This document shows, piece by piece, positions 28,509 through 54,874 of a stretch of DNA of 58,941 bases. The DNA comes from Candidatus Woesearchaeota archaeon CG_4_10_14_0_2_um_filter_33_13 (lineage in GTDB: Archaea; Nanobdellota; Nanobdellia; Woesearchaeales; GW2011-AR9), in NCBI GenBank assembly GCA_002792115.1, contig PFNQ01000028.1, positions 1 to 58,941 of the forward strand, given 5' to 3'. A program made the position numbers and the translations under genes. How positions within the stretch are numbered: position 1 is the stretch's first letter; every line of letters begins with the position of its first letter. Under the pieces are notes generated by a model. The model did no database searches, had not been told where the DNA came from, and saw only the letters and a list, made by a program, of their open reading frames with translations.

Positions 28509-31500
28509 ATGCATTCAAACAAAAAGAGGGTTATTTTAATTGGATTGTTTTTTTTAGTTTTAAGTTCTATTTTAACTTTAGCTATTTCAAACTTGCCTTC
28601 GTTAAACTTAAACCAAGAAGCACACGCCAGTTTGGGAAAATATATGGACCCGGGAGGAGCAGTTTGTTATTGTAACCACGGACCGACTGATGATTGTTGG
28701 TATGATAATGATGGCCTTTATGATCATGGGAAAAATTGGGATTATGTTTACGATTGTAGTGGATTGCCAGGACCACAGTCAACTGATCCAGAGAACTTAA
28801 TTTTACCAGATCCTGAGTTTAGACATCGTTGTGGAGATGATGAGGGTCCAGAAGCGGTTGGAATAAATGTCGATGTAACTAATTTAGGAGATGGTAAATA
28901 TTTAAATGTTCCAGAACAACAAGGGTGTTGGTTTGTATTAGAAGAACAAGATGAAGTAACAAGCAATGAGAAGGGTTGGGCGAGAATAAAAGAGGGATTT
29001 ATTTTTGATCATAACTGGAGGGTCTTGTGTTATCAAAGAGAAGATAGTACTGCTCGCGGTCCTTGGTGTTATGATATGGGTGGAGGAAGTGACGCGCAAT
29101 ACGGATTAACTGGTGCGCATTATCGTGCTGCTAAGGATGGAACTCTTTCTTACATCTGTTCAGATGATCAGTTTTGGCATACTTGTAATGAAGGAAATGC
29201 TGGAACAGTTACCTGGGCGAAGAATATTTTATTTAATTGTACAACGGACGAAAACAATAATATTTTGTGGCAACGCCTAGACTTTGATTATGATGGGGAT
29301 GGTTATACTCAATCACAAGGAGATTGTGCCAACACACCTGATGACCTTAGAGTTCAACAAGCAGGATGTCCAGAATTTGGTCACCCTGAAGATTGCGTCT
29401 TGCCGAGAGATTCTCGTTGCGCCATCTGTATTAATCCAATCGCTCCAGAAATTTGTGGAGATGGTATTGGCAGTGGGGTAAATGATCCTACAGATGGATT
29501 AGGAAATGATTGTAATGATGCAACTGATGACAATTGTGATAATTTTAAGGAAGGATGTAATCAAGATACAATAGAACCAACAGAAGGTCCAGATGGAATT
29601 GTAGCAACATTTCAGGATCATGGCAATGTATTTGATAGTTCTTTTCCTTGGGTGCAAACAGGAAAAGAAGGGGAAGGCTTTTGTTGCGGGTTTAAGGGTG
29701 TTGATGATATTGGTAAAAAAGTTAAAGGTACAGAAAGTGCATCAGGAGAATTTATTTGCTTACCTAAAAAAGATACTGGATTAACTGGAACAGAATTAGA
29801 TGAAGTTCCAGGAGGAGATTTATTTTGTAAAGATGATTGGTGTTTAGCTAACGCTATTGGAGTAAGTCCTGCTGGTGGTAAATTTAATATTTTAACCATA
29901 AACAAACCCGGAGAAAAATCCTACGATATTGTATCAAATGGAGAAGAATGGTTTACTTGCGATGCCAACAATTTGGGAGAGTTTAAGAAAACAAACTATC
30001 CACAACAAGGTTTAGACACCGAAGAGGCGTATGGTATTATTCGTCAAATTAACAACCGACTATATTGTTATAATGAAGGAGATCATTATGCTTGGGCAGA
30101 ATGTGCCGGCGATCTAGACAAAAGAAAAAATAAAGAGATTAAAGGAAGATATCCTGGAGAAGGATTGTTTAGTTTACCTTTAGATGTTGGGGAAACAATC
30201 GGAGAGATTAGATCTTCTGTTGGCGGATTTATTGATATCAATTCATTCAAATATTATACAGAATTTTACGGTGAAAACCATTTATTAGATTTTTCAGGTT
30301 ATGACTATTTTAGTTTGATGGTGCAGTTTTGCACTGGTGGATGCACTGACGCAGAAATTTTAACTTTGGAACAATTGCAAAAAGAGAAACTTCTACCTTT
30401 AGATATCACTTTAACTTTCAATGGCCCAAATAAAGAAGTTCTGTTTGAAAAACAAATTCTTAGTGATATCACTAATGGACCAATCGAGGACAGCAAGTGG
30501 TTGCATATAAAAACCAAAATTCCGCAAAACATTTTAGCCATAAAATCTGTATTATTACAATCCCATCCTTCTACTATTGAAATGCGGGTTAGAAATGTGT
30601 ATTTAAGTAAAGAAGAAGACAAAACCCAATTATGTTCTGGGTTAGATTCTGCGGATGAAAATTCTTGGCTTGATGATATTGATAAAGGGACATCTCAATC
30701 AAATATCGTTGGTAAAGATCTTTGTACTACTCTTTATGGGGATAATTCTTGGTTAGGTAAGGATAACGATTTAACTTCCGGATTTGCAAATGCTAATTGT
30801 TGTGGTGACGATCCAAACGAATATTATGTTGGTAAGACTAAAGAAAATGACAATGGTGCAAAATTTGCTTGTTGGAACTCTAAAACAATTGCAGATAAAG
30901 GAACAGTTATGGATGTTGAATTTGATGTTGAGTGGAAAGAATTAGTTTATTCAAGAACAGAAGAAGAAATTGCAGTTAAAGATTTATTGTTAGACTATTA
31001 CACTGAACCTTTTTTAGAGGAAGAATTAACATCGAAGGAAATTTGGGAGTGGGGAGATGATCCCGATAATCTTGTTTCTGAAAGTAGGTTATATGCTGAT
31101 AAATCTGGGGCGGTTCAATTTTGCATTGAAATGGGGTATACTTCTGCCAAGTCATATAAAGAAGAAGCATGTGTGAAAAACCCAAAGGAATTAATTGCAA
31201 CATATTATACTCCTGGAGAACGCGAAAATTATTCAACTCTAAATGATTTTGGATGGTATTCGGAATATTGTGGTCCCGGAGAGTTTGGATCATTAAACTC
31301 AATTTTAACAGAAGTTATATGTCAGGTCGATTTAACTTCTGGATGGAATAATATTCCCAATTCGACTAATATAAATCTCCAAGAACCACTGAAGATTATT
31401 GCCAAAATTTCTCCTTCAAAGATTGCGTCACCTAATTATCTTACTAAGTTTGGGTTAACAATCAATTCTAAACAGGACGATAGAATAGAACTTGAAGCAT

Positions 31501-33926
31501 ACAGCACTGTTTCTTTTCAAAAATTGGGAACGTTTGAAAATGGAAAACTAACAATTAGTCCAAAAGATATTGTAGGAGAGGATGCATATTATTCTTCAAT
31601 TTTAATCGTTGCCAAATTAAATTTAGAAAATGTTAATTTTGATATTTCTTCTCAATTAGTTTCGAACATCTCCACCTTTTCTTACCCCTGTAATGCAGAA
31701 GAATGTCTTTATCCCGTACCTGGAATTCCTGCACAAGGAATAACGATAGAGAATCTTCATCCTAACCTTTACGATCTTTACTACTTATACTACCAAGATG
31801 ATGAAGTTAAAGAGAAGTTTATTGAGAAGAAAGAAACATTCTATCAACCAGGAAATATTGTAGCTAGAAAGGTCTCACAACAAATTGTTTTTAGTGCAGA
31901 AGCGAATGAAACAACTGAAGATCCAAAATTTTATGGTTGTCAAGCGGCAGATTTTATCAAGAGTAACAACAAAATTTCCATTCTACTTGAAGATAAAGGA
32001 TATTGTTCGATTCAAGCTGATCAATTCTGTTCACCTTCTGTGAATAAAGAAGCCGTGGGCAGTCAAGATAGTTATACTTTAATTAATTCGTGGAGTGATG
32101 AACAATTAGAGAAGGTTGGATATGTAGTTCAGGAATCAGAAACAGACGATCTTTCTACATACTTTGCTAATTTGGTTTTAGAATTAAAGGACGCATCTCC
32201 GTTTATAACACCATCACAAAGGAACCATACTTCTACTATCGTTCCGGTTAGAAACTTTGTACCTAATGCCGAGTTTAGATATAGCGGAGTACAAATACCC
32301 CATTGGGAGATTATTAAGGGAGACAAAGTTATTTTAGAAGAGAAGGCCTTTGTTGATGTGTACACCTATTCTATTAAGAAACTTAGTGGCAATGAAGTTT
32401 TACGTTCAGAAAAGATTTCTGTTAACCAATCTAATGATTATTATTTTCAACACAATGGCACGGCTAAAACAACAATCACTTTGTTTGACAATAACGGGAA
32501 AGAAACAGAAAAAATAACAAATACCAAATTATCAGAACCATTTAATTCTAAAAACGCTACTTTCCTAATTATTGAATTTAATCAAGGTACAGTTCAACAA
32601 CCATCTTTACAATTAGTAGATAGTTTAGGCATTGGAAATGATACATTTGTGCATAAAGAATACCCTGATCTGTTTGATTTCAGGACTGGTATAGCTTGTT
32701 GTCCGGAAAATTATTGTTGGAACGGATATACTTGTGCAGAACCAATGCAAGAAATGTCTATGATGACTGAACACTTTGGTGTTGGTAGAGATTATAGGTG
32801 TATAAAGGGAGAATGGACAGCCTTGCCAATTAAGTGGGATTGGAACAATGATAAGTGGGGATTCTGTAGTGAAGAAAATCAATGTTTTATTACTAGTGAA
32901 GGAAGTGCCACTTTTACTTCAGAAGACTTTTATGACGGAAATATGCCAATTTGTGTGAACACCAGCGAATATATCCTTGATCATTATTGTGAAGATGGAA
33001 ATTGGAGTACCAGAACAAAATATCTTTCTAGTAAGTTAGCAGAATTTGCTCAAAATGATGAATACATAATCTATTGCACAAACTATCGTGAAGCTCTACT
33101 AGACTTCAATCCAGAACTTTATCTTGGCGGAGAATGTTTTGCAACAGATGAACAAAAAGCGGGGCTAGAAGAAACGTTTTTAGAAAGTAATGGTCCAGAA
33201 TCTTTACAAAATTGTTTTTGTGAATTAATGACCGAAGAAGGAAAACGATTAGTGCCAAGTAAAGATAACAATTGCATCAACAATGTTTGTGTGGTTAAAT
33301 ACAAAGAAAGTGGTGCATTTAAAACTGCGTTTGGCACTACCTTAAACAAGAATATTTCTGATCCGGATTCTTTCCTCCTAGCTTTAGGAGTGCAACAACA
33401 AGATCTGGCCGAAGTTTGTTCTGGTGAAGGAGATTTGATTGAATGCAACTTTGAAAACAATATCATCTGGTATATCCCAAAATTAAATGCAGTTGTTTAT
33501 GGCAAGGAAGGAATTCAATTAAGTGGAACCGTGGGTCAAAAGATTGTTGATTTCTTTAAAGACTTGTTTGGCATAGAAACAGCGATAACTAACCAATCTA
33601 AGTTTGTAAAGGAGGCACAAAACTTTAACGAGATTTATCTGTTAAGCAAGGATGGCAAGAAAGTAACTGCTATCAAAGAAGTGTATCCAGGAAAGAAACA
33701 AACACTTGTTGCTCAGTATGAAAATTTTGAAACTCCTGTTTGTAGTTATGTTGAGCATTTAGAAGTACCTTTAGAATTACAAACAGAATTATTGGAGGAC
33801 ATTTCAGATATGAAAAAGTTGGAGTGTAGTCAAGAAGGTAGTATCCAAAAAGTTCAGATGATTGCCGGGTTAGATTATTTCTGGCCACAACTTACCGGAA
33901 AGCTACGTGTTGGAGAGATGAAATAA
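28509..33926 (+). CDS. Giant cysteine-rich predicted extracellular protein (1805 aa) with an N-terminal signal or anchor helix
   Basis: MHSNKKRVILIGLFFLVLSSILTLAISNL, then no further TM helix. Cys/Asp/Asn/Gly/Trp-rich. MopE/TSP3-like DFDYDGDGYTQSQGDC...EICGDGIGSGVNDPTDGLGNDCND. Recurrent W-x-x-C modules (DQFWHTCNEGNAG, EEWFTCDANNLG, HYAWAECAGD) are shared with 48283-50220. Confidence 0.85.
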   Translation: MHSNKKRVILIGLFFLVLSSILTLAISNLPSLNLNQEAHASLGKYMDPGGAVCYCNHGPTDDCWYDNDGLYDHGKNWDYVYDCSGLPGPQSTDPENLILPDPEFRHRCGDDEGPEAVGINVDVTNLGDGKYLNVPEQQGCWFVLEEQDEVTSNEKGWARIKEGFIFDHNWRVLCYQREDSTARGPWCYDMGGGSDAQYGLTGAHYRAAKDGTLSYICSDDQFWHTCNEGNAGTVTWAKNILFNCTTDENNNILWQRLDFDYDGDGYTQSQGDCANTPDDLRVQQAGCPEFGHPEDCVLPRDSRCAICINPIAPEICGDGIGSGVNDPTDGLGNDCNDATDDNCDNFKEGCNQDTIEPTEGPDGIVATFQDHGNVFDSSFPWVQTGKEGEGFCCGFKGVDDIGKKVKGTESASGEFICLPKKDTGLTGTELDEVPGGDLFCKDDWCLANAIGVSPAGGKFNILTINKPGEKSYDIVSNGEEWFTCDANNLGEFKKTNYPQQGLDTEEAYGIIRQINNRLYCYNEGDHYAWAECAGDLDKRKNKEIKGRYPGEGLFSLPLDVGETIGEIRSSVGGFIDINSFKYYTEFYGENHLLDFSGYDYFSLMVQFCTGGCTDAEILTLEQLQKEKLLPLDITLTFNGPNKEVLFEKQILSDITNGPIEDSKWLHIKTKIPQNILAIKSVLLQSHPSTIEMRVRNVYLSKEEDKTQLCSGLDSADENSWLDDIDKGTSQSNIVGKDLCTTLYGDNSWLGKDNDLTSGFANANCCGDDPNEYYVGKTKENDNGAKFACWNSKTIADKGTVMDVEFDVEWKELVYSRTEEEIAVKDLLLDYYTEPFLEEELTSKEIWEWGDDPDNLVSESRLYADKSGAVQFCIEMGYTSAKSYKEEACVKNPKELIATYYTPGERENYSTLNDFGWYSEYCGPGEFGSLNSILTEVICQVDLTSGWNNIPNSTNINLQEPLKIIAKISPSKIASPNYLTKFGLTINSKQDDRIELEAYSTVSFQKLGTFENGKLTISPKDIVGEDAYYSSILIVAKLNLENVNFDISSQLVSNISTFSYPCNAEECLYPVPGIPAQGITIENLHPNLYDLYYLYYQDDEVKEKFIEKKETFYQPGNIVARKVSQQIVFSAEANETTEDPKFYGCQAADFIKSNNKISILLEDKGYCSIQADQFCSPSVNKEAVGSQDSYTLINSWSDEQLEKVGYVVQESETDDLSTYFANLVLELKDASPFITPSQRNHTSTIVPVRNFVPNAEFRYSGVQIPHWEIIKGDKVILEEKAFVDVYTYSIKKLSGNEVLRSEKISVNQSNDYYFQHNGTAKTTITLFDNNGKETEKITNTKLSEPFNSKNATFLIIEFNQGTVQQPSLQLVDSLGIGNDTFVHKEYPDLFDFRTGIACCPENYCWNGYTCAEPMQEMSMMTEHFGVGRDYRCIKGEWTALPIKWDWNNDKWGFCSEENQCFITSEGSATFTSEDFYDGNMPICVNTSEYILDHYCEDGNWSTRTKYLSSKLAEFAQNDEYIIYCTNYREALLDFNPELYLGGECFATDEQKAGLEETFLESNGPESLQNCFCELMTEEGKRLVPSKDNNCINNVCVVKYKESGAFKTAFGTTLNKNISDPDSFLLALGVQQQDLAEVCSGEGDLIECNFENNIIWYIPKLNAVVYGKEGIQLSGTVGQKIVDFFKDLFGIETAITNQSKFVKEAQNFNEIYLLSKDGKKVTAIKEVYPGKKQTLVAQYENFETPVCSYVEHLEVPLELQTELLEDISDMKKLECSQEGSIQKVQMIAGLDYFWPQLTGKLRVGEMK

Positions 33927-34050
33927 TTATTCAAACAGACTAAGCAGTTAAACAGATTAAAACGTTTTATTTTTCTAACACCACTCCTTTTTAAAAGTAT
34001 TTAGCTCATTTCTGGATAATTTTATAAGTTATATTATTTTCTTAACGGAT

Positions 34051-37194: not shown

Positions 37195-37195
37195 G

Positions 37196-46124: not shown

Positions 46125-46133
46125 TTTTACAAA

Positions 46134-47233: not shown

Positions 47234-47337
47234 ATTTATGACCACGATTGAATTTATAGCAACATTTATATATAAAATTTCTTTCTTTAAGATAAAATAA
47301 TAGTCTATAATAAAGAGAAAAAATGAGGTGTGATAGA

Positions 47338-47682
47338 ATGGTTTCTAAAAAGGGACAAGGACTTTCCTTGACAACAATTATTGTAGCAGCTTTGGCTTTG
47401 ATTGTTTTAGTTGTTTTAGTAATGATTTTTACTGGAAGAATTGGAGTTTTTAATGAGGGATTAAGTAAAGAAGGACAGGCTGAAATAATTAAGATGAAAA
47501 TTCAATATGGCCAATGTAGACCTACTGCTACTAATGAAGTTACTTTTGATCAAAAGTTAACTGCTGCTGAATCAATTGAAACAAAAGAATTAGAGAAGGC
47601 TGCATTTTTAGATCAAATATCCCGATGTAAAGGGTTTTCAGATAAATCTGTTTGTGAAGGAAACGGCTGCATGTGGAGTTGA
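47338..47682 (+). CDS. Small pilin-like protein (114 aa), candidate major subunit
   Basis: MVSKKG|QGLSLTTIIVAALALIVLVVLVMIF. The start is set at ATG 47338 because GAGGTG lies 6 nt upstream. It is preceded by the largest internal intergenic gap among the small pilin-like genes, which contains TATA-like CATTTATATATAAAA (47263-47277). Confidence 0.7.
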   Translation: MVSKKGQGLSLTTIIVAALALIVLVVLVMIFTGRIGVFNEGLSKEGQAEIIKMKIQYGQCRPTATNEVTFDQKLTAAESIETKELEKAAFLDQISRCKGFSDKSVCEGNGCMWS

Positions 47683-47684
47683 AG

Positions 47685-48005
47685 ATGAATTCCAAAGCTG
47701 ATGCAAACATGTGGTGGATTATTATCGGGGCAGTCATTGCTCTGGTAGTAATGATTATCTTGATGGTTATCTTTACAGGAAAAACCGGGACTTTAGAAGG
47801 CGGACTTTCTGATTGTGAGGGCAAAGGTGGTTATTGTACAACAGAATCAGAATGTCCTCTAAACAGTTTTAGTTCTAGCGCCTTTAGTTGTACAGATGGG
47901 AAGAAATGTTGCATTGGCGCTCCAGAAAAATGTGTTGCTGGTACATGCAAAGATGAAAATAAACAAACTTGTAAAGATGGGTATTGTTATACTAAAACTA
48001 GCTAA
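47685..48005 (+). CDS. Small pilin-like protein (106 aa) with a Cys-rich C-terminal knot
   Basis: MNSKA|DANMWWIIIGAVIALVVMIILMVIF, then CEGKGGYCTTESECP...CTDGKKCCIGAPEKCVAGTCKDENKQTCKDGYC. The start is set at ATG 47685 (GGAG 8 nt upstream, 2 nt after the previous stop). Confidence 0.68.
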   Translation: MNSKADANMWWIIIGAVIALVVMIILMVIFTGKTGTLEGGLSDCEGKGGYCTTESECPLNSFSSSAFSCTDGKKCCIGAPEKCVAGTCKDENKQTCKDGYCYTKTS

Positions 48006-48008
48006 ACC

Positions 48009-48140
48009 ATGAACAATAAAGCTCAAGAAGGTTCCTCCCAAACGATTAAAGTAATCTTAATGACATTACTTGCAGTTTTGATGGGAGCTGCTTTTCTTTA
48101 TTTTGTCTGGAAAAAGATGTCCGGAAATTTTGCACCATGA
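48009..48140 (+). CDS. Micro-ORF (43 aa) consisting only of a pilin-like leader plus helix
   Basis: Not in the ORF track. MNNKA|QEGSSQTIKVILMTLLAVLMGAAFLYFVWKKMSGNFAP. Starts 3 nt after the previous stop and its stop overlaps the next start (ATGA). Confidence 0.55.
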   Translation: MNNKAQEGSSQTIKVILMTLLAVLMGAAFLYFVWKKMSGNFAP

Positions 48141-48283
48141 GAATTAACAAAAAAGGGTTGGAGATGCAACAACTGATTTTAATAGTTCTAGCAGTTATTC
48201 TCTTATTGTTTGTTATTGCTTGGTATTCTGGGTTGGGAGATGTAATCAAAGACTTGTTAAATAAATTTGGAAATATGTTATAA
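48137..48283 (+). CDS. Micro-ORF (48 aa) consisting only of a pilin-like leader plus helix
   Basis: Not in the ORF track. MRINKKG|LEMQQLILIVLAVILLLFVIAWYSGLGDVIKDLLNKFGNML. It has the same MRINKKG leader as 53663-54874. Its stop overlaps the next start (TAATG). Confidence 0.55.
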   Translation: MRINKKGLEMQQLILIVLAVILLLFVIAWYSGLGDVIKDLLNKFGNML

Positions 48284-50220
48284 TGGCAATGCAAAATAGG
48301 ATTGTGTTGTACTTGTTATTGTTGATTGTTTTTGTTCTCGTTGCCTATTGGGGGGTTGGTGGTTTGGATAGTGTTAAAGAACTAGTTGCTGGAGCAAAAG
48401 AATATGCCCCCGATATTAAAACAGGGTTAGATGAATTAGGTGCAGCCGAACAAATTCTTCCTCCGGCAATCCGTGACCAAGCTAAGAAATTGGAAGATGG
48501 ACTTTTAGCTATGGTGGCCGAAGGTTCTAGATCAAATTGTTTTCAGGATATTGGGGGATTTAGAGAAAATTTAGGAAAGGATGAAGAAGATACAGTTACA
48601 TTTCTCTTCACCTTTGATCCAAATGCAGAAGGAACTTGGGTAGACATCAACACCTACAAAAGTGTAACTTATAATCGTTTTTTCGTTCCGAAAATGAAAC
48701 CTTGTGTTATTGCTAAAGGAGATTTACCTAAGAAGTTTGTGCAGAAGTTTATTGATAACGATAAAAACATTGACTTAAGTTTAGAAATTGTTTCTGGTGT
48801 GAATATATATTACAATACAAAAAAATTGAATGGCAATGTGTTAAGAGTTATTCAGGAAGGTTGGCCTATTACTGCAGTTAATGACGAAAGTGATAATTAT
48901 CAAAGTGATGGAATTTTGTATAAGGGTAGTGATAATGAAATCTGCTTTATCCCAACAAATAAAGTTTACAATTATGACCAAGACGGAATTGACAATGATT
49001 ATGTAAATGATAAAGCTGATGAGGGAACAATTGCTTGGAAAGTTGCAACTGGAGTTTTGCCATCTTGCACTTCAGTTAACGGTTATGAAGCAATAGAATT
49101 GTTTGCCGATGATGATGCTAGTGCTGGAGAATTTGATTGCGAAATAAAATTCAAAAAAGATTCGCAGAAACAACTTCTTAAACCAATCCCTAATTTTGGA
49201 ACTACTTCGGGACAAGATGGAGATTGTTCTGATATTTTTAAAGACCATTTACTTAAAGAAGGAGTTTTAACTCTTCCCAAAGATGGTTGTTGGGCAATTA
49301 TTTCTGAGGATGACGACAGTGATTATAATGATTGTGGCTGGGTAGAAGTTGGTCCAGGAGAAATAATTCCTGGTAAGAATAAGAAAGGCACAAAACTCTA
49401 TCAACAAAGTGCTCCACGCTATGAAAACACTGATCCGTTATGTTTGTTAGAATTTTATAATTGGCGTATGCCCGATGAACTACAAGGAGAATTATTGTGT
49501 GATGGTTCTTCTCATAAATGGTATCAATGTGAAGATACTACCACAGGGATGGAAAAGAAGATGACAGTAAATGGTAAGGATGTTGTTTACACTTGTAATG
49601 GGGGAGGCGTTTGGTTCGTAAATAACACCGAACATTTGCCTTGGTTTACTTATGGTAGTATAGAACTATTTACGGATAATGATAATAGTTATCCTGGTAG
49701 TTGCGATACTCAAGATGCTAATATATACTTCGCTTGTGATGCTCGTGGAACAATGGGAGTGGTTAAGGAAACAGATTTTGGTTCTGGCACATTTAACTGT
49801 CCGACAGAGGATTATGATTGCAATAATTATGCTAAATCGCATTCTGGGAAAGTGGCTAATAGTTGTAATCTTTTCCTTTCTGAAGATGACAATAGTGGTA
49901 ATGATTGTGCCGATGCATCTGTGCCATTTGGAGAATGGGTAAATATGTACGCAGGAACATTCTATCATTGTGATGGGAATGAAAAGAATTGTGAGAAGGG
50001 GCCAAGTTACGTTGGTAAAGACTCTGATGACCATGGGCTTTGTCTATTAAGAAATAAGTGGATTGTCGAGAGGTATCCTGGAGATCTATTGTGTAGCAAT
50101 GTTGCTAACCAAAACTGGATCTTATGTGATAATAGAAAAGTGGGTAGTTATGTTGTTCTAAATGGAGAAACCCAATATTGTCAAAATAATGATGGTGACT
50201 ATCGGTTTATGAAAAAATGA
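48283..50220 (+). CDS. Cys-rich predicted extracellular protein (645 aa) with an N-terminal anchor and an internal tandem duplication
   Basis: MAMQNRIVLYLLLLIVFVLVAYWG. Two repeats of about 190 aa (about 49081-49650 and 49651-50217) share IELF.D.D.S, [GS]C..[IFL][IL]SEDD.S..DC, LCLL, [GD][ED]LLC, W..C[ED][DN] and NG....Y.C. Confidence 0.8.
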   Translation: MAMQNRIVLYLLLLIVFVLVAYWGVGGLDSVKELVAGAKEYAPDIKTGLDELGAAEQILPPAIRDQAKKLEDGLLAMVAEGSRSNCFQDIGGFRENLGKDEEDTVTFLFTFDPNAEGTWVDINTYKSVTYNRFFVPKMKPCVIAKGDLPKKFVQKFIDNDKNIDLSLEIVSGVNIYYNTKKLNGNVLRVIQEGWPITAVNDESDNYQSDGILYKGSDNEICFIPTNKVYNYDQDGIDNDYVNDKADEGTIAWKVATGVLPSCTSVNGYEAIELFADDDASAGEFDCEIKFKKDSQKQLLKPIPNFGTTSGQDGDCSDIFKDHLLKEGVLTLPKDGCWAIISEDDDSDYNDCGWVEVGPGEIIPGKNKKGTKLYQQSAPRYENTDPLCLLEFYNWRMPDELQGELLCDGSSHKWYQCEDTTTGMEKKMTVNGKDVVYTCNGGGVWFVNNTEHLPWFTYGSIELFTDNDNSYPGSCDTQDANIYFACDARGTMGVVKETDFGSGTFNCPTEDYDCNNYAKSHSGKVANSCNLFLSEDDNSGNDCADASVPFGEWVNMYAGTFYHCDGNEKNCEKGPSYVGKDSDDHGLCLLRNKWIVERYPGDLLCSNVANQNWILCDNRKVGSYVVLNGETQYCQNNDGDYRFMKK

Positions 50221-51422
50221 TTTCAATAATTAAAAAAGGATTGAACAAGAAAGGGATGACTGCAAGTTTTTTAGTAGGTTTAATCATTACGATAGTCTCA
50301 TTTATGATTATTGCTAATGTCATTTTTCAATTCTTAGGCAGTGCTGAAGATAAAGAAGCAGAACTGCTTTGTCATGATAGTCTTGCTTTAAGAGCATCAA
50401 CAACTATCCAGTTAAATCAAGGAAAGGATCAAGATTGGCATGATCTGCTAAGTGGTAATGTGAAAATGTCTCCTGTTTTATGTAAAACAATTGATATTAA
50501 ACTGAAAGGTACTCGAGAAGAGATTAAAAGAGCCTTTGCAGAAAAGATTGCCAGATGTTGGTGGATGTTTGGTGAAGGCAGATATGAAGAGATTCTTGAT
50601 ACCGGGGACTTAAATGTTGCGCCTTTCTTCTTGGGTGTGCATAATGAACCAAACCAATGTTTCAATTGTTACAATATTATGATTGATCAAGATGAGATTG
50701 TTGGGGATGATGAGGTTAAATGTGCAACTGAAGATTGTCCAATCTCTCCACAAGAGTTATTAAGATTTATGTGGGATAAAAGTCCATTAAAAGCAAGAGT
50801 AGAATGTAATAACAAAACAGATAAAAATTGTGTTTTTTGTAATATTGACAAAGAATGTAATTCCAATGGTGGAGACCTAAAATGCATTGATCATATCTGT
50901 GAAAAAGACATTGACATAAATTATTTGCAATATATTCAAAGTTATGGTGGTCCTGGAATGTTTATTAATATCATAGAAGAAGAAGGTCTTCAGGCTAGGC
51001 ACGCGTATTCAATTTCTATTCTTCCAAAAAACAAAGAGAAAGAACAAACTAACTGGTTAGCTTGGGTTGGTGGAGGGGTCGCGGTCTTAGGTATAGGTGC
51101 ATGTATTATTATCTCTGGTGGGGCATGTGCAGCAGCAGTAATCCCATTTATGTCAGTTACAGCTGCAGGAGGGACTGCAGTAGCAGCAGGAGCTGCAACG
51201 GTTGGTGTTGTAGGAGCAAAGGTAGCGGCGGGGGCCATAGCATATGATTACATCACTGCTCCAGATGCAAAATCTCCTCCTCAACTGGGAGCCACACTCA
51301 ATAGTGCAGCAAAAATTTCCATTGAAACTATGTTCAAAGAAAGAGAGCGTACTTCTGTTTATCTTAGTGAAACTAAGTATGGGCAAACTTATTGTGGTTC
51401 AGGAGATCTAGGCGGAGAATAA
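50217..51422 (+). CDS. Pilin-like-leader protein (401 aa) with a Cys-rich ectodomain and Gly/Ala-rich C-terminal membrane segments
   Basis: MISIIKKGLNKKG|MTASFLVGLIITIVSFMIIANVIF. The C-terminal region is WLAWVGGGVAVLGIGACIIISGGACAAAVIPFMSVTAAGGTAVAAGAATVGVVGAKVAAGAIAY. Confidence 0.75.
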   Translation: MISIIKKGLNKKGMTASFLVGLIITIVSFMIIANVIFQFLGSAEDKEAELLCHDSLALRASTTIQLNQGKDQDWHDLLSGNVKMSPVLCKTIDIKLKGTREEIKRAFAEKIARCWWMFGEGRYEEILDTGDLNVAPFFLGVHNEPNQCFNCYNIMIDQDEIVGDDEVKCATEDCPISPQELLRFMWDKSPLKARVECNNKTDKNCVFCNIDKECNSNGGDLKCIDHICEKDIDINYLQYIQSYGGPGMFINIIEEEGLQARHAYSISILPKNKEKEQTNWLAWVGGGVAVLGIGACIIISGGACAAAVIPFMSVTAAGGTAVAAGAATVGVVGAKVAAGAIAYDYITAPDAKSPPQLGATLNSAAKISIETMFKERERTSVYLSETKYGQTYCGSGDLGGE

Positions 51423-51438
51423 AAAGAGGCAAATAATT

Positions 51439-51747
51439 ATGAAACTGATAAAATCTAAAAAAGGCGCAACACAAATATGGTGGATTATTGTTACAGCACT
51501 TATTGCTATTTTAATTATGGTGTTTATCATCGTCTGGTTTAAAGGAAGTGGTGAGAAAGCTTATACTAGTGTTGATGATAAGATCGGCGAGTTAGGAGAT
51601 TGTGATAAAGATAATGTTGCCGGACTGTTTGATAAATGTCCCTGCGAAGCAGGAGATGTGAAGTATGACGGGTGTTCCCAAGGACAGAATGCTACCAGTT
51701 GTGAGGCTTCAAAAACAAGTGGAAAAATAGCAGATGGTTGTAAATAA
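51439..51747 (+). CDS. Small pilin-like protein (102 aa) with a Cys-rich, TSP3-like C-terminus
   Basis: MKLIKSKKG|ATQIWWIIVTALIAILIMVFIIVWF, then GDCDKDNVAGLFDKCPCE... The helix is paralogous to that of 47685-48005 (shared WWII motif). Confidence 0.7.
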   Translation: MKLIKSKKGATQIWWIIVTALIAILIMVFIIVWFKGSGEKAYTSVDDKIGELGDCDKDNVAGLFDKCPCEAGDVKYDGCSQGQNATSCEASKTSGKIADGCK

Positions 51748-51749
51748 AA

Positions 51750-52409
51750 ATGAACCGTAAAGGATTTTTAGCCAAAACATTATTTGTTTTGATTGTATCT
51801 ATTCTTATTTTTTCTACTTCTTGTTCCCTTGGAGCAAAATTCTTTCGTCTAAGTTCGCAAGCGAAAGATAATTTTGTTGCTTTTACAAATGAGATTGAAG
51901 ATTTGCAACAGAATGCTAAGGAAGGGGACAGAAGGAATAGTCTTCTGATAATTGATTCTGGAACTGTCGTTGCGTACTTTTCTGCCCCACAGTTAAAGGT
52001 TCATGTTGATGCTGCCTCTAAACCTGGCCAATATCTTTATGATTATGACATCTACTTAAGCAGGCCGATTGAGTGTGAAGAAGAAGGTATGCCTGGATGT
52101 TTTTGCTTATTCCGAGAAGTAGAAACAAAAGCTTCTTTTTCTGATAAAAGAGTTGACGTTATTCCTTTAAAATCAATCTGTGTGTCTCAAGAATTTTTAA
52201 TAATTTACGATAATTCTAGAAATAGTATTCCTGGTTGTGGAGTTGGTATTCCAAAAGAAGTTAATTCTTATCAATGTGATGGTGGTTTTTTAGTTGATAG
52301 AGGAGTGATCGGTGAAGCCGATTATGTTAAGGCCTTTTACGAAAATGGTAGAAGAATAAATTTTCTCATCCAAAAAGATCCCAACAATATTTTAATCTAC
52401 GAACAATAA
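51750..52409 (+). CDS. Pilin-like-leader protein (219 aa)
   Basis: MNRKG|FLAKTLFVLIVSILIFSTS. Starts 2 nt after the previous stop. Confidence 0.7.
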   Translation: MNRKGFLAKTLFVLIVSILIFSTSCSLGAKFFRLSSQAKDNFVAFTNEIEDLQQNAKEGDRRNSLLIIDSGTVVAYFSAPQLKVHVDAASKPGQYLYDYDIYLSRPIECEEEGMPGCFCLFREVETKASFSDKRVDVIPLKSICVSQEFLIIYDNSRNSIPGCGVGIPKEVNSYQCDGGFLVDRGVIGEADYVKAFYENGRRINFLIQKDPNNILIYEQ

Positions 52410-52410
52410 G

Positions 52411-52815
52411 ATGAACAAGAAAGGTTACGATTTAATCATGGTTATTTTTGAGGTTTTAGTAGTTGCTTCCGTCGTATTTATGTCTTTGCAAGTAGCGAAA
52501 GGTTATGCGGAATCAACTACCGTTGATAAGGTTAATACTGCAACAGATCTTGCTTTGATGGTTAACACTTTTGTAGGTACTCCCGGAGACAGTATTGTAG
52601 AATACCCAAAAAATGTTTCTCAATTTTCCATAGTTTTAAGTGATGGAGGAGTTAAGGTTTTTGTTAAGGGAGAAAGTGAAATAAAACAAGCTTCCCAAAC
52701 ATTTTATCTTCCAGAAAAATATTCCGCTGAAGGAATTACTGAAGAGGCTACTAAAATTTGTTTAAGAAAAGATGGCTATGTAATAACTTTGTTTGAGTGT
52801 GGTGTAAATGGCTGA
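52411..52815 (+). CDS. Pilin-like-leader protein (134 aa)
   Basis: MNKKG|YDLIMVIFEVLVVASVVFM. The DNA leader atgaacaagaaagg is repeated at 53302 and, as ttgaacaagaaagg, at 50244. Confidence 0.7.
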   Translation: MNKKGYDLIMVIFEVLVVASVVFMSLQVAKGYAESTTVDKVNTATDLALMVNTFVGTPGDSIVEYPKNVSQFSIVLSDGGVKVFVKGESEIKQASQTFYLPEKYSAEGITEEATKICLRKDGYVITLFECGVNG

Positions 52816-53287
52816 CGAAGAATTTGGCCCAACGAGGAAAGTAATCTATTGGATGTTGGCAGGTGTAGTTATTACTATGGTTGTTCTTGGATTTGCTATT
52901 ATGCTTGGAAATTATCGTAACAATTTAACACAAACACCAAAGGAAGTTAAGGCCGAGTTAGTGTCTTTAAGATTTGCAAATATCCCCGAATGTTTTGCTT
53001 ATGAAGATCCTGTCAATCTTCGCCCATATCCCGGAGTAATAGATGTGAATAAGTTTACTAAAGAACAGATGGATAAATGTTATCTTACTAATCCAGAGAT
53101 GGGATATAAAGATTTTAATTTTGGTCTAGAATTAAAGGGCCATAATCTAAAAGTGATTACCAACAATTATTATAACCAAGATAGTTTCACAATAGTCAAA
53201 AATGTTTTAGTTAAGGAAAAAGATGGTGCTACTACTGACGATATACTTTACGTATATGTGCAAGAAATAATTGGTGATCCCAAATGA
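52808..53287 (+). CDS. N-terminally anchored small protein (159 aa) of the same block
   Basis: MADEEFGPTRKVIYWMLAGVVITMVVLGFAIML. One N-terminal helix but no G/A at the -1 position. Overlaps the upstream gene by 8 nt. Confidence 0.6.
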   Translation: MADEEFGPTRKVIYWMLAGVVITMVVLGFAIMLGNYRNNLTQTPKEVKAELVSLRFANIPECFAYEDPVNLRPYPGVIDVNKFTKEQMDKCYLTNPEMGYKDFNFGLELKGHNLKVITNNYYNQDSFTIVKNVLVKEKDGATTDDILYVYVQEIIGDPK

Positions 53288-53652
53288 TTCGCCTGAAAAG
53301 AATGAACAAGAAAGGATGGTTTGATGACTTTTTCGACTTTTTATTTACTGTGGTTTCCGCTTTTTTTATTCTTATGTTTATGGGGATGATTTTGGTAGCA
53401 AGTACAGATAGGGTTGCTAAAGAATTGAAGAATCATGTTACCATTGTACAAGATACTGATGATTTCTTGGTTTTGGAAAGATCACAATTAGAGAAAGGTT
53501 ACTACTTAAAGGACTTAGATAGTCGTTACACTAGCATTAAAAGATATGGTTCAATAGAACGACAGATCAAAGAGAAGAGAGATTTTTATGCTGATAATCC
53601 TTATGTTGCGGGAGTAGATAGTGATGGGGATCCAATTCCTATTGTCGGTTAA
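53284..53652 (+). CDS. Pilin-like-leader protein (116-122 aa)
   Basis: (MIRLKR)MNKKG|WFDDFFDFLFTVVSAFFILMFMGMILV. ATG 53302 is an equally good start. Confidence 0.65.
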   Translation: MIRLKRMNKKGWFDDFFDFLFTVVSAFFILMFMGMILVASTDRVAKELKNHVTIVQDTDDFLVLERSQLEKGYYLKDLDSRYTSIKRYGSIERQIKEKRDFYADNPYVAGVDSDGDPIPIVG

Positions 53653-53662
53653 ATCTTAAAAA

Positions 53663-54874
53663 ATGAGAATAAACAAAAAAGGCGCATTTTTTCATTGGAT
53701 CATCTTTGGAGTAGTTGCAGCTATTGGGCTGTATTTTGTTTTATCCATTGATGTTAACGTTACTGGTCAGAACACTAAAGGGGTGTGGCAGTTAAGTTAC
53801 GTAAGAGCTACACAAGATGCACAAAAAGATCTTTTAGAAATAGACCAAACTGCAAGAAATGCAATCGCTCTAGCAGTTAATAACATCGGCAAGGAACAAT
53901 TGGCTAAGGATTTGGGTTGTGGAGTAGTGAAAGGTTACCCCGTGTGGAATAACAAAAAAGGTTTTTGTGAATTGAAGTTAGATGAAACAATAAAAGCCGA
54001 TATTAATAAATTAATAATAAATAAAACAAACGTTCCATATGAAGAAATAATCTATTCTGAAGGAGCAATAATTGGCAAAACAAATGAACGTAAAGTTATT
54101 GGAAGTTCTTTGGGTGTCATTCCAACTTCTACAAAAACAGCGGGTCTCTTTACAACTTATGAATCTTATCTTATCAAACCATTCGAGTTAAGGTATGAAT
54201 ATAACCCTGGATTTAGAGTTAAAGTTGGTTCTTCATTTGGCAAAGCTTATGAAACAATTAAAGAACAAGCTAAATCACTCTTAATTAATTGTAGTACAGA
54301 ACTAAATCTTAAAGATTGTCTTGATAAAAACAAACTCAATACGTGGCATTACACTTATTGTGAAAAAGATTATTTTGCTCAAGAAGGCCGTGTTGTACCT
54401 TTCTGTGTTAAAACTGATGGACAGGGAGACTATAAATTAGCTTTAGATTTCATTTCTGAAGGGACATTAGCAGTTACTGGCATATCTACTGAATTTGATA
54501 AAGACCAAAACTTGACCACCATTAGTTTTGAATTATATCCTGGAATCAAAGACTATACTATTTATTACACAAATTGGTTAATTGCCCAATCACAAATCCC
54601 TCCAGCTAAGAAAGCAGCAGAAATATTTTATACTATGCCTTCAGGAGAAGGATTTGATTATTTCCAAAAAAGTATTAACTTCTCGCTTGCTTCATTTGAC
54701 AACAATTGTCCTGTAAATAAAGAACCAAATAATGTGTACCTGTGTTCAAATATGGTGATGTATTCTTTTATTGATAACTCTCTGAATACTGGGAATTATT
54801 TATTTGCCGTAATCGCAATTCAAGATGCGCAAGAAACTACCATAACATCTTTCACTTCCTTAAATGTTAATTAA
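53663..54874 (+). CDS. Pilin-like-leader protein (403 aa), last gene of the block
   Basis: MRINKKG|AFFHWIIFGVVAAIGLYFVLS, then a soluble domain of about 370 aa with scattered Cys pairs. Confidence 0.72.
   Translation: MRINKKGAFFHWIIFGVVAAIGLYFVLSIDVNVTGQNTKGVWQLSYVRATQDAQKDLLEIDQTARNAIALAVNNIGKEQLAKDLGCGVVKGYPVWNNKKGFCELKLDETIKADINKLIINKTNVPYEEIIYSEGAIIGKTNERKVIGSSLGVIPTSTKTAGLFTTYESYLIKPFELRYEYNPGFRVKVGSSFGKAYETIKEQAKSLLINCSTELNLKDCLDKNKLNTWHYTYCEKDYFAQEGRVVPFCVKTDGQGDYKLALDFISEGTLAVTGISTEFDKDQNLTTISFELYPGIKDYTIYYTNWLIAQSQIPPAKKAAEIFYTMPSGEGFDYFQKSINFSLASFDNNCPVNKEPNNVYLCSNMVMYSFIDNSLNTGNYLFAVIAIQDAQETTITSFTSLNVN

What the first reader, a model, noticed from the sequence alone, without database searches (positions are those of the whole stretch)
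28509..54874. 26-kb, 21-gene single-strand block of pilin-like-leader proteins and giant cysteine-rich surface proteins with no recognisable assembly machinery: candidate novel surface filament or adhesion system
Seen directly: every ORF from 28509 to 54874 is on the plus strand, and most junctions are under 15 nt or overlap (44412, 46667, 48137, 48283, 50217, 52808, 53284). Fifteen products start with a short basic leader ending in [K/S]-[G/A], followed directly by a hydrophobic helix of about 20 residues (genes at 34051, 44412, 45018, 46134, 46667, 47338, 47685, 48009, 48137, 50217, 51439, 51750, 52411, 53284, 53663). Interleaved are proteins of 1805, 1047, 2101 and 645 aa that are very rich in Cys, Asp, Asn, Gly and Trp. 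These carry beta-sandwich, FN3-like, CarboxypepD_reg-like and TSP3/MopE-like motifs. Established knowledge: a [KR]-[GA] site before a hydrophobic helix is the class III signal peptide cut by archaeal prepilin peptidases (PibD/FlaK/EppA) in type IV pilin-like proteins. Unusual features: I see no PilB/FlaI-type ATPase (no Walker A in any small ORF), no FlaJ/PilC-like polytopic platform, no A24 peptidase and no enzyme motif at all. The number of distinct pilin-like genes (at least 15) far exceeds the number of pilin genes I would expect in a typical archaeal pilus operon. Heavily disulfide-capable giant ectodomains are atypical for archaea. Shared modules across genes argue the block is one functional unit: WxxC repeats in 28509 and 48283, a 6-Cys module and tail in 37196 and 38110, and identical MRINKKG and MNKKG leaders. 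Inference: a multi-subunit pseudopilus or fibre that displays giant adhesins, plausibly for cell-cell or host attachment in a symbiotic small-genome archaeon.
Basis: partly seen in the sequence, partly recalled or inferred. Interest (0 to 1): 0.9.

Follow-up and report, generated by a model that had tools for sequence, protein, structure and literature searches.

The report
Conserved pilin-like surface operon, Woesearchaeota
A 26-kb run of 20 same-strand genes in a Woesearchaeota (DPANN) archaeon encodes 16 proteins with type-IV-pilin-style N-termini plus giant cysteine-rich surface proteins. The genes keep the same order in at least 80 related species and none has a described function, so this is most likely an uncharacterised pilus-type adhesion apparatus whose motor is encoded elsewhere.

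Summary
There are 20 ORFs (not 21) at 28509-54874, all on the + strand and tightly packed. Fifteen carry [KR][GA] directly before a hydrophobic helix, against 0 of 32 other window proteins.

The block is real and old. All 80 loci retrieved from 96 matching GTDB species (Woesearchaeota/Nanoarchaeota MAGs) keep the same gene order, between RNase P p30 and RPA, about 10 kb from a probable oriC. It splits into two modules:
- Module A: giant proteins plus four pilin-like proteins. It also occurs alone in distant relatives.
- Module B: small and tiny pilin-like proteins plus accessory proteins.

In six families the hydrophobic helix is the best-conserved part and the leader varies in length. Both are pilin hallmarks.

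Two confident AlphaFold models match no solved pilin. No Pfam, NCBIfam, PHROG or PDB family fits, apart from CarboxypepD_reg domains in the 2101-aa protein.

No ATPase, platform or A24 peptidase lies in the window, in 10 kb either side, or in the related loci. Archaeal pilin sets are often served in trans, and papers report flaI/J/K in Woesearchaeota.

Best reading: a new, lineage-specific variant of a type IV filament and adhesin system. This is not proven.

The parts
28509..33926 (+). First gene of the block. An 1805-aa, 63-Cys extracellular giant protein with one N-terminal hydrophobic segment and no KKG motif.
   Evidence: Homologues of 1638-1946 aa, 31-49% identical, are all 'hypothetical', with a weak Cu-binding_MopE hit. 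Its orthologue sits directly upstream of the 34051 orthologue in L051, L085-L087, L090 and L092.
34051..37194 (+). 1047-aa pilin-like giant protein. N-terminus K-R-A / L-K-A|Q-I-T-I-F plus a hydrophobic helix. The N-terminal ~367 residues are conserved and the Cys-rich C-terminal part varies.
   Evidence: No Pfam, PDB or PHROG match.
37196..38053 (+). 285-aa type I membrane protein: Sec-like signal, Cys module, one TM segment and a K/E-rich cytoplasmic tail. A small paralogue of the two ends of the 2101-aa protein.
   Evidence: Orthologue-to-38110 hits of E = 1.7e-12 and 2.4e-15.
38110..44415 (+). 2101-aa, 80-Cys surface protein. It has a cleavable-looking signal, two CarboxypepD_reg domains, Asp-rich TSP3-like motifs, a TM segment at about residue 1916 and a 165-residue K/E-rich cytoplasmic tail.
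   Evidence: Pfam E = 2.8e-21.. Found in 76 of 80 related loci, median 42% identity.
44412..44993 (+). Module A pilin-like protein 1 (193 aa). Variable leader, then K-[KR]-G|M-G-V-G-Q-V-F-V-F.
   Evidence: Found in 80 of 80 loci, median 54% identity. The motif is present in 93% of orthologues. Majority-residue frequency is 0.80 for the helix, 0.60 for the rest and 0.19 for the leader.
45018..46124 (+). Module A pilin-like protein 2 (368 aa, the largest). K-K-[GA]|Q-I-E-V-T-F-N-W, six invariant Cys, invariant C-terminal L-Y.
   Evidence: Alignments A1 and A2. AlphaFold2 pLDDT 93.4, with a helix at 15-61, then a beta-rich domain and a helical bundle. No PDB fold match at E < 0.001. The family has 1725 clusters (50% identity level) at E <= 1e-3.
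46134..46670 (+). Module A pilin-like protein 3 (178 aa). K-K-G|Q-x-x-M-T-E-T-I-A-V-L-F.
   Evidence: Found in 77 of 80 loci, median 54% identity..
46667..47233 (+). Module A pilin-like protein 4 (188 aa). The family consensus is K-K-G|Q-M-E-M-I-G-L-V-V; this genome has S-R-S-A|Q.
   Evidence: AlphaFold2 pLDDT 89.2, with a helix at 7-35, a linker and an alpha/beta domain. Best PDB fold hit E = 0.015, to ribosomal proteins and not to pilins.
47234..47337 (.). Boundary between modules A and B. A 104-nt AT-rich spacer with a TTTATATA box and a GGTG about 8 nt before the ATG. Possibly an internal promoter.
   Evidence: Sequence read. In L033, L036, L041, L063 and L077 the hits to the block end exactly here; in L033, L036 and L063 housekeeping genes follow. 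The promoter role is inference.
47338..47682 (+). Small pilin-like protein (114 aa). K-K-G|Q-G-L-S-L-N-V-I-I-V-A-A-L-A-L-I-V-L-V-V-L, four invariant Cys. A candidate abundant subunit.
   Evidence: Alignment A3. Motif present in 98% of orthologues. Helix 0.87 against 0.53 for the rest. Paralogous to 47685 and 51439 (hhalign probability 98.5% and 96.7%).
47685..48005 (+). Small pilin-like paralogue (106 aa, 10 Cys). K-K-A|S-A-N-M-W-W-I-I-I-G-A.
48009..48140 (+). Tiny pilin-like ORF (43 aa). After the N-K-A|Q site it is essentially one hydrophobic helix.
   Evidence: One or two 30-80-aa ORFs with the same motif lie in this gap in 51 of 52 related loci, and both are present in 39. L011 hit E = 7e-7.
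48137..48283 (+). Tiny pilin-like ORF (48 aa). K-K-G|M-E-M-W-Q-L-V-L-I-I-L-A. About the size of an Flp pilin.
48283..50220 (+). 645-aa Cys-, Asp- and Asn-rich extracellular protein with an N-terminal hydrophobic anchor and no KKG motif. It is the least conserved member: median 29% identity in the 47 loci where a homologue was found, and shorter in relatives.
50217..51422 (+). 401-aa protein with a K-K-G site and helix at the N-terminus, a conserved Cys-rich core (ARCWWMFGEGRYEEIL, CFNCY, YIQSYGGPG) and two Gly/Ala-rich hydrophobic segments near the C-terminus.
51439..51747 (+). Small pilin-like paralogue (102 aa, 6 Cys). K-K-G|x-x-x-M-W-W-I-I.
   Evidence: hhalign probability 99% to the 47685 family.
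51750..52409 (+). 219-aa pilin-like protein. N-[KR]-K-G|I-M-V-K-F-L-V.
   Evidence: A faint ComGD hit, E = 0.07, far below the cut-off.
52411..52815 (+). 134-aa pilin-like protein. M-N-K-K-[GA], then a helix.
52808..53287 (+). 159-aa protein with an N-terminal helix. This genome lacks the motif, but 60% of orthologues have [KR][GA]-Q.
53284..53652 (+). 122-aa pilin-like protein (N-K-K-G|M-M-D-D-L-F-D-F-L-F). Poorly conserved.
53663..54874 (+). Last gene of the block. A 403-aa pilin-like protein (M-N-K-K-G|A-x-F-H-W-I), followed by RPA in the window and in relatives.

Best explanation
The block is the structural-gene set (pilins, accessory pilin-like proteins and adhesins) of a lineage-specific type IV filament-like surface apparatus of Woesearchaeota.

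[quoted passage not shown] A short, variable basic leader ends in K-K-[G/A]. A prepilin peptidase of the FlaK/EppA/PibD kind, encoded elsewhere, removes it. This leaves a conserved hydrophobic N-terminal helix. The motif is shown here; the cleavage is inferred.

**Step 2, module A.** The four strongly conserved pilin-like proteins (193, 368, 178 and 188 aa) bundle their helices into a priming or tip complex. That complex carries or positions the giant Cys-rich proteins (1805, 1047 and 2101 aa), much as bacterial minor pilins carry PilY1 or as GspH-I-J-K cap the pseudopilus. This step is an analogy and is inferred.

**Step 3, module B.** It supplies the small (102-114 aa) and tiny (43-48 aa) subunits that could polymerise as the fibre, plus further accessory subunits. 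This is inferred.

**Step 4, anchoring.** The 2101-aa and 285-aa proteins are type I membrane proteins with long K/E-rich cytoplasmic tails. They tie the structure to the cell. The topology is shown from sequence; the role is inferred.

**Step 5, motor and folding.** Assembly would use a FlaI/TadA-type ATPase and a FlaJ/TadC-type platform encoded in trans. Disulfides would be formed outside the cell by the DsbD/VKOR-type proteins encoded nearby.

**Step 6, function.** The likely use is adhesion to surfaces or to partner cells.
For: - **Motif.** [KR][GA] lies directly before the hydrophobic core in 15 of 20 block proteins and 0 of 32 others. It is present in 60-100% of orthologues in 13 of the 14 families tested; 48283 has none. 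Q is at +1 in the 45018, 46134, 46667 and 47338 families and in most motif-bearing 52808 orthologues. From memory, that is the site preferred by the Methanococcus pilin peptidase EppA.
- **Leader.** Its length ranges from 3 to 42 residues within families, and strong conservation starts at the K-[GA] site.
- **Helix conservation.** In six families the hydrophobic helix is the most conserved part: 0.80-0.87 majority-residue frequency against 0.44-0.60 for the rest. That is typical of pilins and not of plain membrane anchors.
- **Shared N-termini only.** Profile comparison links the families through their N-termini and not through their globular parts.
- **Model of the 368-aa protein.** It has a 47-residue N-terminal helix followed by a beta-rich head.
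- **Tiny ORFs.** Two very small pilin-like ORFs are kept in 51 of 52 loci.
- **Synteny.** Gene order is the same in all 80 loci retrieved from 96 matching species and in distant relatives, where module A occurs alone.
- **Conservation level.** The best-kept pilin-like families have median identities of 50-55%, close to RPA at 63%. This argues for a multi-subunit machine.
- **No enzyme, ATPase or polytopic protein** is encoded in the block.
- **Motor in trans has precedent.** Pilin sets encoded away from their ATPase/TadC are documented in archaea (PMC4858521). Large adhesin-like or S-layer-like proteins in archaeal type IV filament loci are described (bioRxiv 10.64898/2026.04.22.720090). flaI/J/K are reported in Woesearchaeota MAGs (PMC5994134, PMC11606122).
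- **Disulfide genes.** DsbD-like and VKOR genes lie 10 kb from the window.
Against: - No secretion ATPase, platform or A24 peptidase is linked to the block. This holds in the window, 10 kb either side, the 80 related loci and three further relatives.
- I could not search the rest of this genome.
- One preprint states that type IV pilus components are missing in DPANN genomes (10.1101/2020.05.14.094862).
- Neither of the two confident structure models matches any solved pilin or pseudopilin. The 188-aa protein has only a membrane-length helix (7-35) joined by a linker to a separate alpha/beta domain.
- No curated pilin model is reached. Pilin_N is hit by 1 of 33 members at E = 0.018 and Flp1_like by 3 of 33 at E = 0.015. 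There are no NCBIfam hits.
- A profile of the small subunit finds only generic transmembrane helices in the PDB.
- Fourteen to sixteen distinct, slowly evolving pilin-like families is unusual for a pilus. Major pilins usually evolve fast.
Confidence: 0.5

Rival explanations
1. A surface complex that is not a filament. The pilin-like proteins are processed by a class III signal peptidase, or simply stay anchored by their N-terminal helices. They assemble in the membrane into a fixed multi-subunit scaffold that holds the giant Cys-rich proteins. This would be an attachment plaque or envelope organiser rather than an extended pilus. It would be comparable in principle to the Sulfolobus bindosome, where class III signals serve proteins that do not form pili.
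For: - Conservation is very high and gene order is strict for about 16 different subunits.
- The globular domains are all different and match no pilin.
- The 188-aa model has a short helix, a linker and a separate domain.
- Two members have long cytoplasmic tails, and one has extra C-terminal hydrophobic segments.
- No motor is linked to the block in more than 80 loci.
- Class III signals on non-pilus proteins have precedent (PMC3047682).
Against: - The helix is conserved more strongly than the rest of the protein, and tiny helix-only subunits exist. Both are what a polymerising fibre core would show.
- Nothing excludes a short pseudopilus.
- No direct evidence bears on the shape of the assembly.
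Confidence: 0.25
2. Ordinary Sec-dependent signal-anchor (type II) membrane proteins and secreted giant proteins form the cell envelope or an S-layer-like coat of Woesearchaeota. The K-K-G before the helix would reflect only the positive-inside rule, with no link to type IV filament biology.
For: - No pilin family or fold is recognised.
- No peptidase, ATPase or platform is present in the locus.
- The 2101-aa protein has Ig-like CarboxypepD_reg domains and a C-terminal anchor, as some archaeal S-layer proteins do.
- The block lies about 10 kb from a probable oriC on the leading strand, which suits highly expressed envelope genes.
- S-layer genes are among the most expressed Woesearchaeota genes in one metatranscriptome (PMC11606122).
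Against: - The positive-inside rule does not explain a Gly or Ala fixed at the last position before the helix in 13 families.
- It does not explain Q fixed at +1 in four families.
- It does not explain conservation that begins exactly at that site after leaders of 3-42 residues.
- It does not explain helices that are more conserved than the ectodomains.
- None of the 32 other window proteins shows the pattern, including several membrane proteins.
Confidence: 0.15
3. An integrated virus or mobile island that encodes structural proteins.
For: The block is a long same-strand run of unannotated genes, some of them giant.
Against: - GC content matches the flanks.
- There are no integrase, capsid, terminase or other PHROG hits. 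The single hit is weak, at E = 0.0017.
- No relative is found in 2.9 million viral contigs.
- The chromosomal position between RNase P p30 and RPA is the same in many species.
Confidence: 0.02

Closest known systems
Archaeal type IV pilus systems with pilin sets encoded away from the motor (Haloferax volcanii PilA1-6 with PilB3-PilC3; euryarchaeal 'system 1/2' loci)
   Same: - Several proteins carry a class III signal peptide ([KR]-[GA] before about 20 hydrophobic residues).
- The ATPase/TadC module can be encoded in trans (PMC4858521).
- Large adhesin-like or S-layer-like proteins sit in the same loci (10.64898/2026.04.22.720090).
   Different: - There are 14-16 distinct pilin-like families here, and none is recognised by existing pilin models.
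- The globular domains have no known fold.
- The giant proteins are Cys-rich.
- No motor is linked to the block in any of more than 80 loci.
- Conservation across the order is far higher than is usual for pilins.
Methanococcus maripaludis Epd pili (EpdA-E pilins, peptidase EppA)
   Same: - The cleavage-site context is K-G followed by Q at +1 in the 45018, 46134, 46667 and 47338 families.
- Very small subunits are present.
- System 1 is reported in some DPANN archaea (10.64898/2026.04.22.720090).
- The Epd details are from my own knowledge.
   Different: - No sequence similarity was detected.
- No eppA, ATPase or twin platform genes lie nearby.
- The number of subunits is much larger, and giant proteins are present.
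Bacterial minor-pilin and adhesin tip complexes (FimU-PilV-PilW-PilX with PilY1; T2SS GspH-I-J-K)
   Same: - Module A has four pilin-like genes of unequal size next to very large extracellular proteins. One of the four is much larger (368 aa, compare GspK).
- The module is inherited as a unit.
- Such complexes prime assembly and sit at the tip (established knowledge).
   Different: - This is an analogy only.
- There is no fold or sequence match to GspK, PilX or PilY1.
- The organism is an archaeon with no outer membrane.
Flp/Tad pilins
   Same: The two tiny ORFs (43 and 48 aa) would give mature peptides of about 35-42 residues, consisting of little more than one hydrophobic helix.
   Different: - There is no G|xxxxEY motif.
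- Flp1_like is hit only faintly, and by the 114-aa family rather than by these ORFs.
- No Tad machinery is nearby.
Sulfolobus bindosome (class III signal peptides on sugar-binding proteins; Bas system)
   Same: It shows that class III signals can serve surface proteins that are not classical pili (PMC3047682).
   Different: - The block contains no solute-binding domains.
- Bas has its own linked ATPase and platform.

Membership tests
Type IV filament (type IV pilus-like) systems | [quoted passage not shown] | tested here: met
   15 of 20 block proteins against 0 of 32 others. Present in 60-100% of orthologues in 13 families. Conservation starts at the site. The cleavage itself was not shown.
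Type IV filament (type IV pilus-like) systems | The N-terminal hydrophobic helix is the most conserved part of the subunit | tested here: met
   True for six families: 0.80-0.87 against 0.44-0.60. Not true for the six later module B families tested.
Type IV filament (type IV pilus-like) systems | Pilin fold: a long N-terminal helix packed on a beta-sheet head, similar to solved pilins | tested here: inconclusive
   The 368-aa model has a 47-residue helix and a beta-rich head but no PDB match at E < 0.001. The 188-aa model has a helix at 7-35, a linker and an alpha/beta domain, and its best hits are ribosomal proteins at E = 0.015. The small subunits were not modelled.
Type IV filament (type IV pilus-like) systems | PilB/FlaI/TadA-type ATPase | tested here: not met
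   Absent from the window, from 10 kb either side, from 80 related loci (the only Walker A hit is an ABC transporter) and from the upstream flanks of relatives. The rest of the genome could not be searched. Papers report flaI in Woesearchaeota (PMC5994134, PMC11606122).
Type IV filament (type IV pilus-like) systems | PilC/FlaJ/TadC-type polytopic platform protein | tested here: not met
   No block protein has more than 3 hydrophobic segments. No T2SSF hit appears in any Pfam listing of the loci. The rest of the genome is not testable with these tools.
Type IV filament (type IV pilus-like) systems | Class III signal peptidase (peptidase A24: PibD/FlaK/EppA) | not testable with these tools
   Not in the window or its flanks. 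The neighbouring 239-aa membrane protein (27704-28423) has a single Asp, no GxGD motif and no Pfam hit, and it is absent at this position in L092. flaK is reported in most Woesearchaeota MAGs (PMC11606122).
Curated archaeal pilin families (Pfam Pilin_N PF07790, Class_IIIsignal PF04021; NCBIfam archaeal flagellin/pilin N-terminal models) | A score above the curated cut-off | tested here: not met
   No hit for any block protein. Among 33 members of the 114-aa family, Pilin_N is hit once at E = 0.018 and Flp1_like three times at E = 0.015.
Bacterial minor pilin / pseudopilin tip complex (GspHIJK, FimU-PilVWX-PilY1) | Homology of the subunits by sequence or fold | tested here: not met
   No Pfam or NCBIfam hits, apart from ComGD at E = 0.07, far below the cut-off. 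Foldseek finds no pseudopilin. Only the gene count and sizes are similar.
Archaeal S-layer proteins | A recognised S-layer domain or family | tested here: not met
   Only CarboxypepD_reg domains in the 2101-aa protein. No PDB relatives by sequence.
Provirus / mobile element | Viral hallmark genes, or presence in viral contigs | tested here: not met
   The chromosomal position is fixed.

The most novel reading that the evidence does not exclude
The block encodes a previously unseen kind of archaeal cell-surface machine.
- About 16 different subunits with prepilin-type N-termini would assemble into a fixed, membrane-rooted attachment organelle, without any dedicated type IV ATPase or platform, or by borrowing only the peptidase.
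- That organelle would display megadalton-scale disulfide-bonded adhesins.
- It would be coupled to the cytoplasm through the coiled-coil tails of the 2101-aa and 285-aa proteins.
- It would be the host- or partner-contact apparatus of Woesearchaeota and related Nanoarchaeota.
Probability: 0.2. Interest if true: 0.85.

Novelty: new variant of a known kind. Interest (0 to 1): 0.65.

Why it matters
Woesearchaeota are among the most widespread uncultured archaea. How they attach to surfaces or partner cells is unknown.

This operon is one of their best-conserved lineage-specific gene sets. The 368-aa family alone has 1725 clusters (50% identity level) at E <= 1e-3. Yet every gene is annotated 'hypothetical'.

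It gives concrete targets for proteomics, antibodies, structure prediction of complexes, and cryo-ET.

If the motor turns out to be shared with the archaellum or absent altogether, that would change how type IV filament systems are defined and detected in genomes. Current detection is centred on the ATPase and would miss this locus.

Tried and rejected
- **Family libraries.** Pfam, NCBIfam and PHROGs scans of block proteins gave only CarboxypepD_reg and sub-threshold noise.
- **PDB by sequence.** Searches with the four giant proteins and with a profile of the small subunit gave nothing or generic transmembrane helices.
- **PDB by fold.** Foldseek with two confident models found no meaningful match.
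- **Motor next to the block.** I looked in 80 species, in split-block variants (L033, L036, L063) and upstream of the first gene in relatives. Only housekeeping genes turned up.
- **The 239-aa membrane protein at 27704-28423.** I considered it as a hidden peptidase or platform and rejected it. It has one Asp and no family hit, and it is not conserved at this position.
- **Promoter and terminator scan.** The bacterial-type scan is uninformative for an archaeon and found counts at the chance level.
- **Literature.** Searches found no description of this cluster. The attachment-organelle paper on Nanobdellota YN1 names no such genes.
- **Viral origin.** Rejected.
- **RNA genes.** Rfam and tRNA scans of the window were empty.

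Full report
**Organism and setting**

The window comes from a low-GC (about 33%) DPANN archaeon. Its flanks encode PolD DP1 and DP2, Cdc6, MCM, TBP, Hjc, TFE, RPA and similar proteins. Every named homologue of the block proteins comes from Woesearchaeota or Nanoarchaeota MAGs.

The source contig is ena:ERZ27293351:k141_102599 (221 kb). I could read 10 kb beyond each end of the window (L001 and L005).

**Checking the observation**

Between 28509 and 54874 there are 20 ORFs. I could not find a 21st.

I applied a strict test for [KR][GA] no more than 12 residues before an 18-residue hydrophobic core.
- It is positive in 15 of 20 block proteins and in none of the 32 other proteins of the window (Fisher p = 3e-9).
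- 46667 fails only because this genome has S-A. Its family consensus is KKG|Q.

The giant proteins have 3.4-3.8% Cys and 12-18% Asp+Asn.

No block protein has a Walker A motif or more than three hydrophobic segments.

Among the claimed domains:
- CarboxypepD_reg (two copies in the 2101-aa protein) passes Pfam.
- MopE and TSP3 appear only weakly, in orthologues.
- FN3-like domains were not confirmed.
- The 'WxxC repeats' are too few to count.
- The shared module of 37196 and 38110 is marginal in this genome but clear through orthologues.

**Is it a unit? Yes.**

The 368-aa protein (45018) has full-length homologues at 45-70% identity.

A scan of one genome per GTDB species found relatives in 96 species, and I kept 80 loci. 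All are Woesearchaeota or Nanoarchaeota MAGs. Many records titled 'uncultured Methanosarcinales' carry the same genes and look mislabelled.

BLAST of the window's proteins against the six-frame ORFs of those loci shows one invariant order:

34051 - (37196) - 38110 - 44412 - 45018 - 46134 - 46667 - 47338 - 47685 - (two tiny ORFs) - 48283 - 50217 - 51439 - 51750 - 52411 - 52808 - (53284) - 53663 - RPA

The 1805-aa gene precedes 34051 wherever the locus reaches that far.

Upstream in relatives lies the same neighbourhood as in the window: Cdc6, SpoIIM, OB-fold protein, MCM, TBP, THUMP, PP-loop and RNase P p30. The block therefore has fixed ends and a fixed chromosomal place.

It is not viral. There are no PHROG hits, no relatives in IMG/VR, and its GC content matches the flanks.

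**Two modules**

In L033, L036, L041, L063 and L077 the hits to the block stop after the 46667 orthologue. In the three loci I inspected, housekeeping genes follow:
- L063: ORFs the size of PolD DP2, DP1 and Cdc6, on the opposite strand (assigned by size and order only, not scanned).
- L036: an ABC transporter and eRF1.
- L033: an MBL-fold hydrolase, a class I tRNA synthetase and peptidases M16 and M24.

A profile search of 1.84 billion representatives found a much wider family: 1725 clusters at E <= 1e-3 and 465 at E <= 1e-30.

In one distant member (L093), only the giant proteins and four pilin-like genes are present, followed by unrelated genes. Those four begin NKG|Q, KKG|S, KKS|Q and KKA|Q.

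Module A (giant proteins plus the 193-, 368-, 178- and 188-aa proteins) is therefore the old core. Module B starts at 47338, after a 104-nt AT-rich spacer with a TTTATATA box. The promoter role of that spacer is inference.

**Are the N-termini prepilin-like?**

Three independent features say yes.
1. The site. Gly or Ala sits at the last position before the helix, preceded by K or R, in 60-100% of orthologues in 13 of the 14 families tested. Q is at +1 in the 45018, 46134, 46667 and 47338 families.
2. The leader. Its length ranges from 3 to 42 residues within families, and strong conservation begins at the K-[GA] site.
3. The helix. In the four module A families and in 47338 and 47685, the hydrophobic helix is the best-conserved part: 0.80-0.87 majority-residue frequency against 0.44-0.60 for the ectodomain. 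Plain membrane anchors keep their hydrophobicity, not their sequence. Pilins keep the sequence because the helices pack against each other.

Further points:
- Profile-profile comparison links the families only through these N-termini. The families 47338, 47685 and 51439 are true paralogues.
- Two tiny ORFs (43 and 48 aa) with the same site are kept between 47685 and 48283 in 51 of 52 loci. They would yield helix-only peptides of about Flp pilin size.

**What does not fit a textbook pilus?**

- No curated pilin model is reached.
- The AlphaFold2 model of the 368-aa protein (pLDDT 93.4) has a 47-residue N-terminal helix and a beta-rich head. Foldseek finds nothing in the PDB at E < 0.001.
- The 188-aa protein (pLDDT 89.2) has only a membrane-length helix, a linker and a separate alpha/beta domain. 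Its best matches are ribosomal proteins at E = 0.015.
- The globular domains of the families are unrelated to each other.
- Conservation is high. The best-kept pilin-like families have median identities of 50-55% and RPA has 63%. That is more like machine parts than like fast-evolving major pilins.

**The missing motor**

No secretion ATPase, platform or A24 peptidase is present in any of these places:
- the window;
- 10 kb either side;
- the 80 related loci, where the one T2SSE-like Walker A match is an ABC transporter;
- the upstream flanks of relatives.

From the literature:
- Archaeal ATPase/TadC modules often act on pilin sets encoded in trans (PMC4858521).
- flaI, flaJ and flaK are reported in 19 Woesearchaeota genomes and in most MAGs of another study (PMC5994134, PMC11606122).
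- One preprint says type IV pilus components are missing in DPANN genomes (10.1101/2020.05.14.094862).

Absence from the locus is therefore confirmed. Absence from the genome is neither shown nor likely.

**Other anatomy**

- The 2101-aa and 285-aa proteins have Sec-like signals, one late transmembrane segment and K/E-rich cytoplasmic tails of about 160 residues. They are rooted in the cell.
- The 401-aa protein has two Gly/Ala-rich hydrophobic segments near its C-terminus.
- DsbD-like and VKOR genes, with peroxiredoxins and SOD, lie just left of the window. This fits extracellular disulfide formation.

**Interpretation**

The best-supported reading (about 0.5) is a lineage-specific type IV filament-like adhesion apparatus. 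Its parts would be:
- a four-subunit priming or tip complex with giant adhesins (module A);
- small and tiny polymerising subunits with accessories (module B);
- a peptidase, ATPase and platform supplied in trans.

The main rival (about 0.25) keeps the prepilin-type processing but proposes a fixed surface complex rather than a fibre. A Sec-anchored envelope coat (about 0.15) does not explain the fixed Gly/Ala site, the Q at +1, or the helix conservation.

No paper I could find describes this cluster. One study notes only that DPANN lineage-specific families are mostly unannotated and membrane-bound or extracellular (PMC8204110).

I rate it a new variant of a known kind, with interest 0.65.

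Noticed in passing
window 18221-18917: Probable chromosomal replication origin. Inverted ORB-like elements lie at 18221-18246 and 18892-18917, each with a GTTTCC-ATGG-GAAAC dyad and a G-string. A further half-copy is at 18748-18760. They flank a stretch of about 26% GC next to cdc6 (17017-18225, minus strand). GC skew turns positive near 26 kb, so the block lies on the leading strand about 10 kb from the origin.
   Followed up: partly
L001 14865-21098 (about 4-10 kb left of window position 1): A cluster of redox and disulfide genes: FUR, ferredoxin, two peroxiredoxins, Fe-SOD, a P-type ATPase, a DsbD-like protein and VKOR. This is a plausible source of extracellular disulfide bonds for the Cys-rich block proteins.
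   Followed up: no
window 27704-28423 (minus strand): A 239-aa polytopic membrane protein transcribed divergently from the first block gene. It has no family hit and a single Asp, and it is absent at this position in relative L092. It is probably not part of the system.
   Followed up: partly
window 26300-27228: A nucleotidyltransferase plus HEPN-like pair (toxin-antitoxin type) just upstream of the block. It is present in one relative (JGI 3300072015, as NTP_transf_2 plus HepT-like) and absent in another (L092).
   Followed up: partly
window 55037-56008 and relatives: An RPA-like OB-fold ssDNA-binding gene follows the last block gene in 28 of the related loci. Together with Cdc6, MCM and PolD upstream, the surface operon sits inside a conserved replication-gene neighbourhood.
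   Followed up: partly
window 50217-51422, residues about 280-345: A Gly/Ala-rich stretch of two hydrophobic segments (glycine-zipper-like) near the C-terminus of the 401-aa pilin-like protein. Its sequence is poorly conserved and its role is unknown.
   Followed up: partly
L036 18252-19796: The eRF1 gene of a related Woesearchaeota MAG carries an intein (Intein_splicing and Hint hits inside eRF1 domains).
   Followed up: no
Loci L017-L019, L024-L026, L028 and many others: Many GTDB records titled 'uncultured Methanosarcinales archaeon' carry this Woesearchaeota-type block in the same order. Their titles are probably wrong.
   Followed up: no
window 9790-10350 (minus strand): QueH (epoxyqueuosine reductase), a gene of the bacterial queuosine pathway. 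Such genes have been noted before in DPANN archaea (PMC8204110).
   Followed up: no
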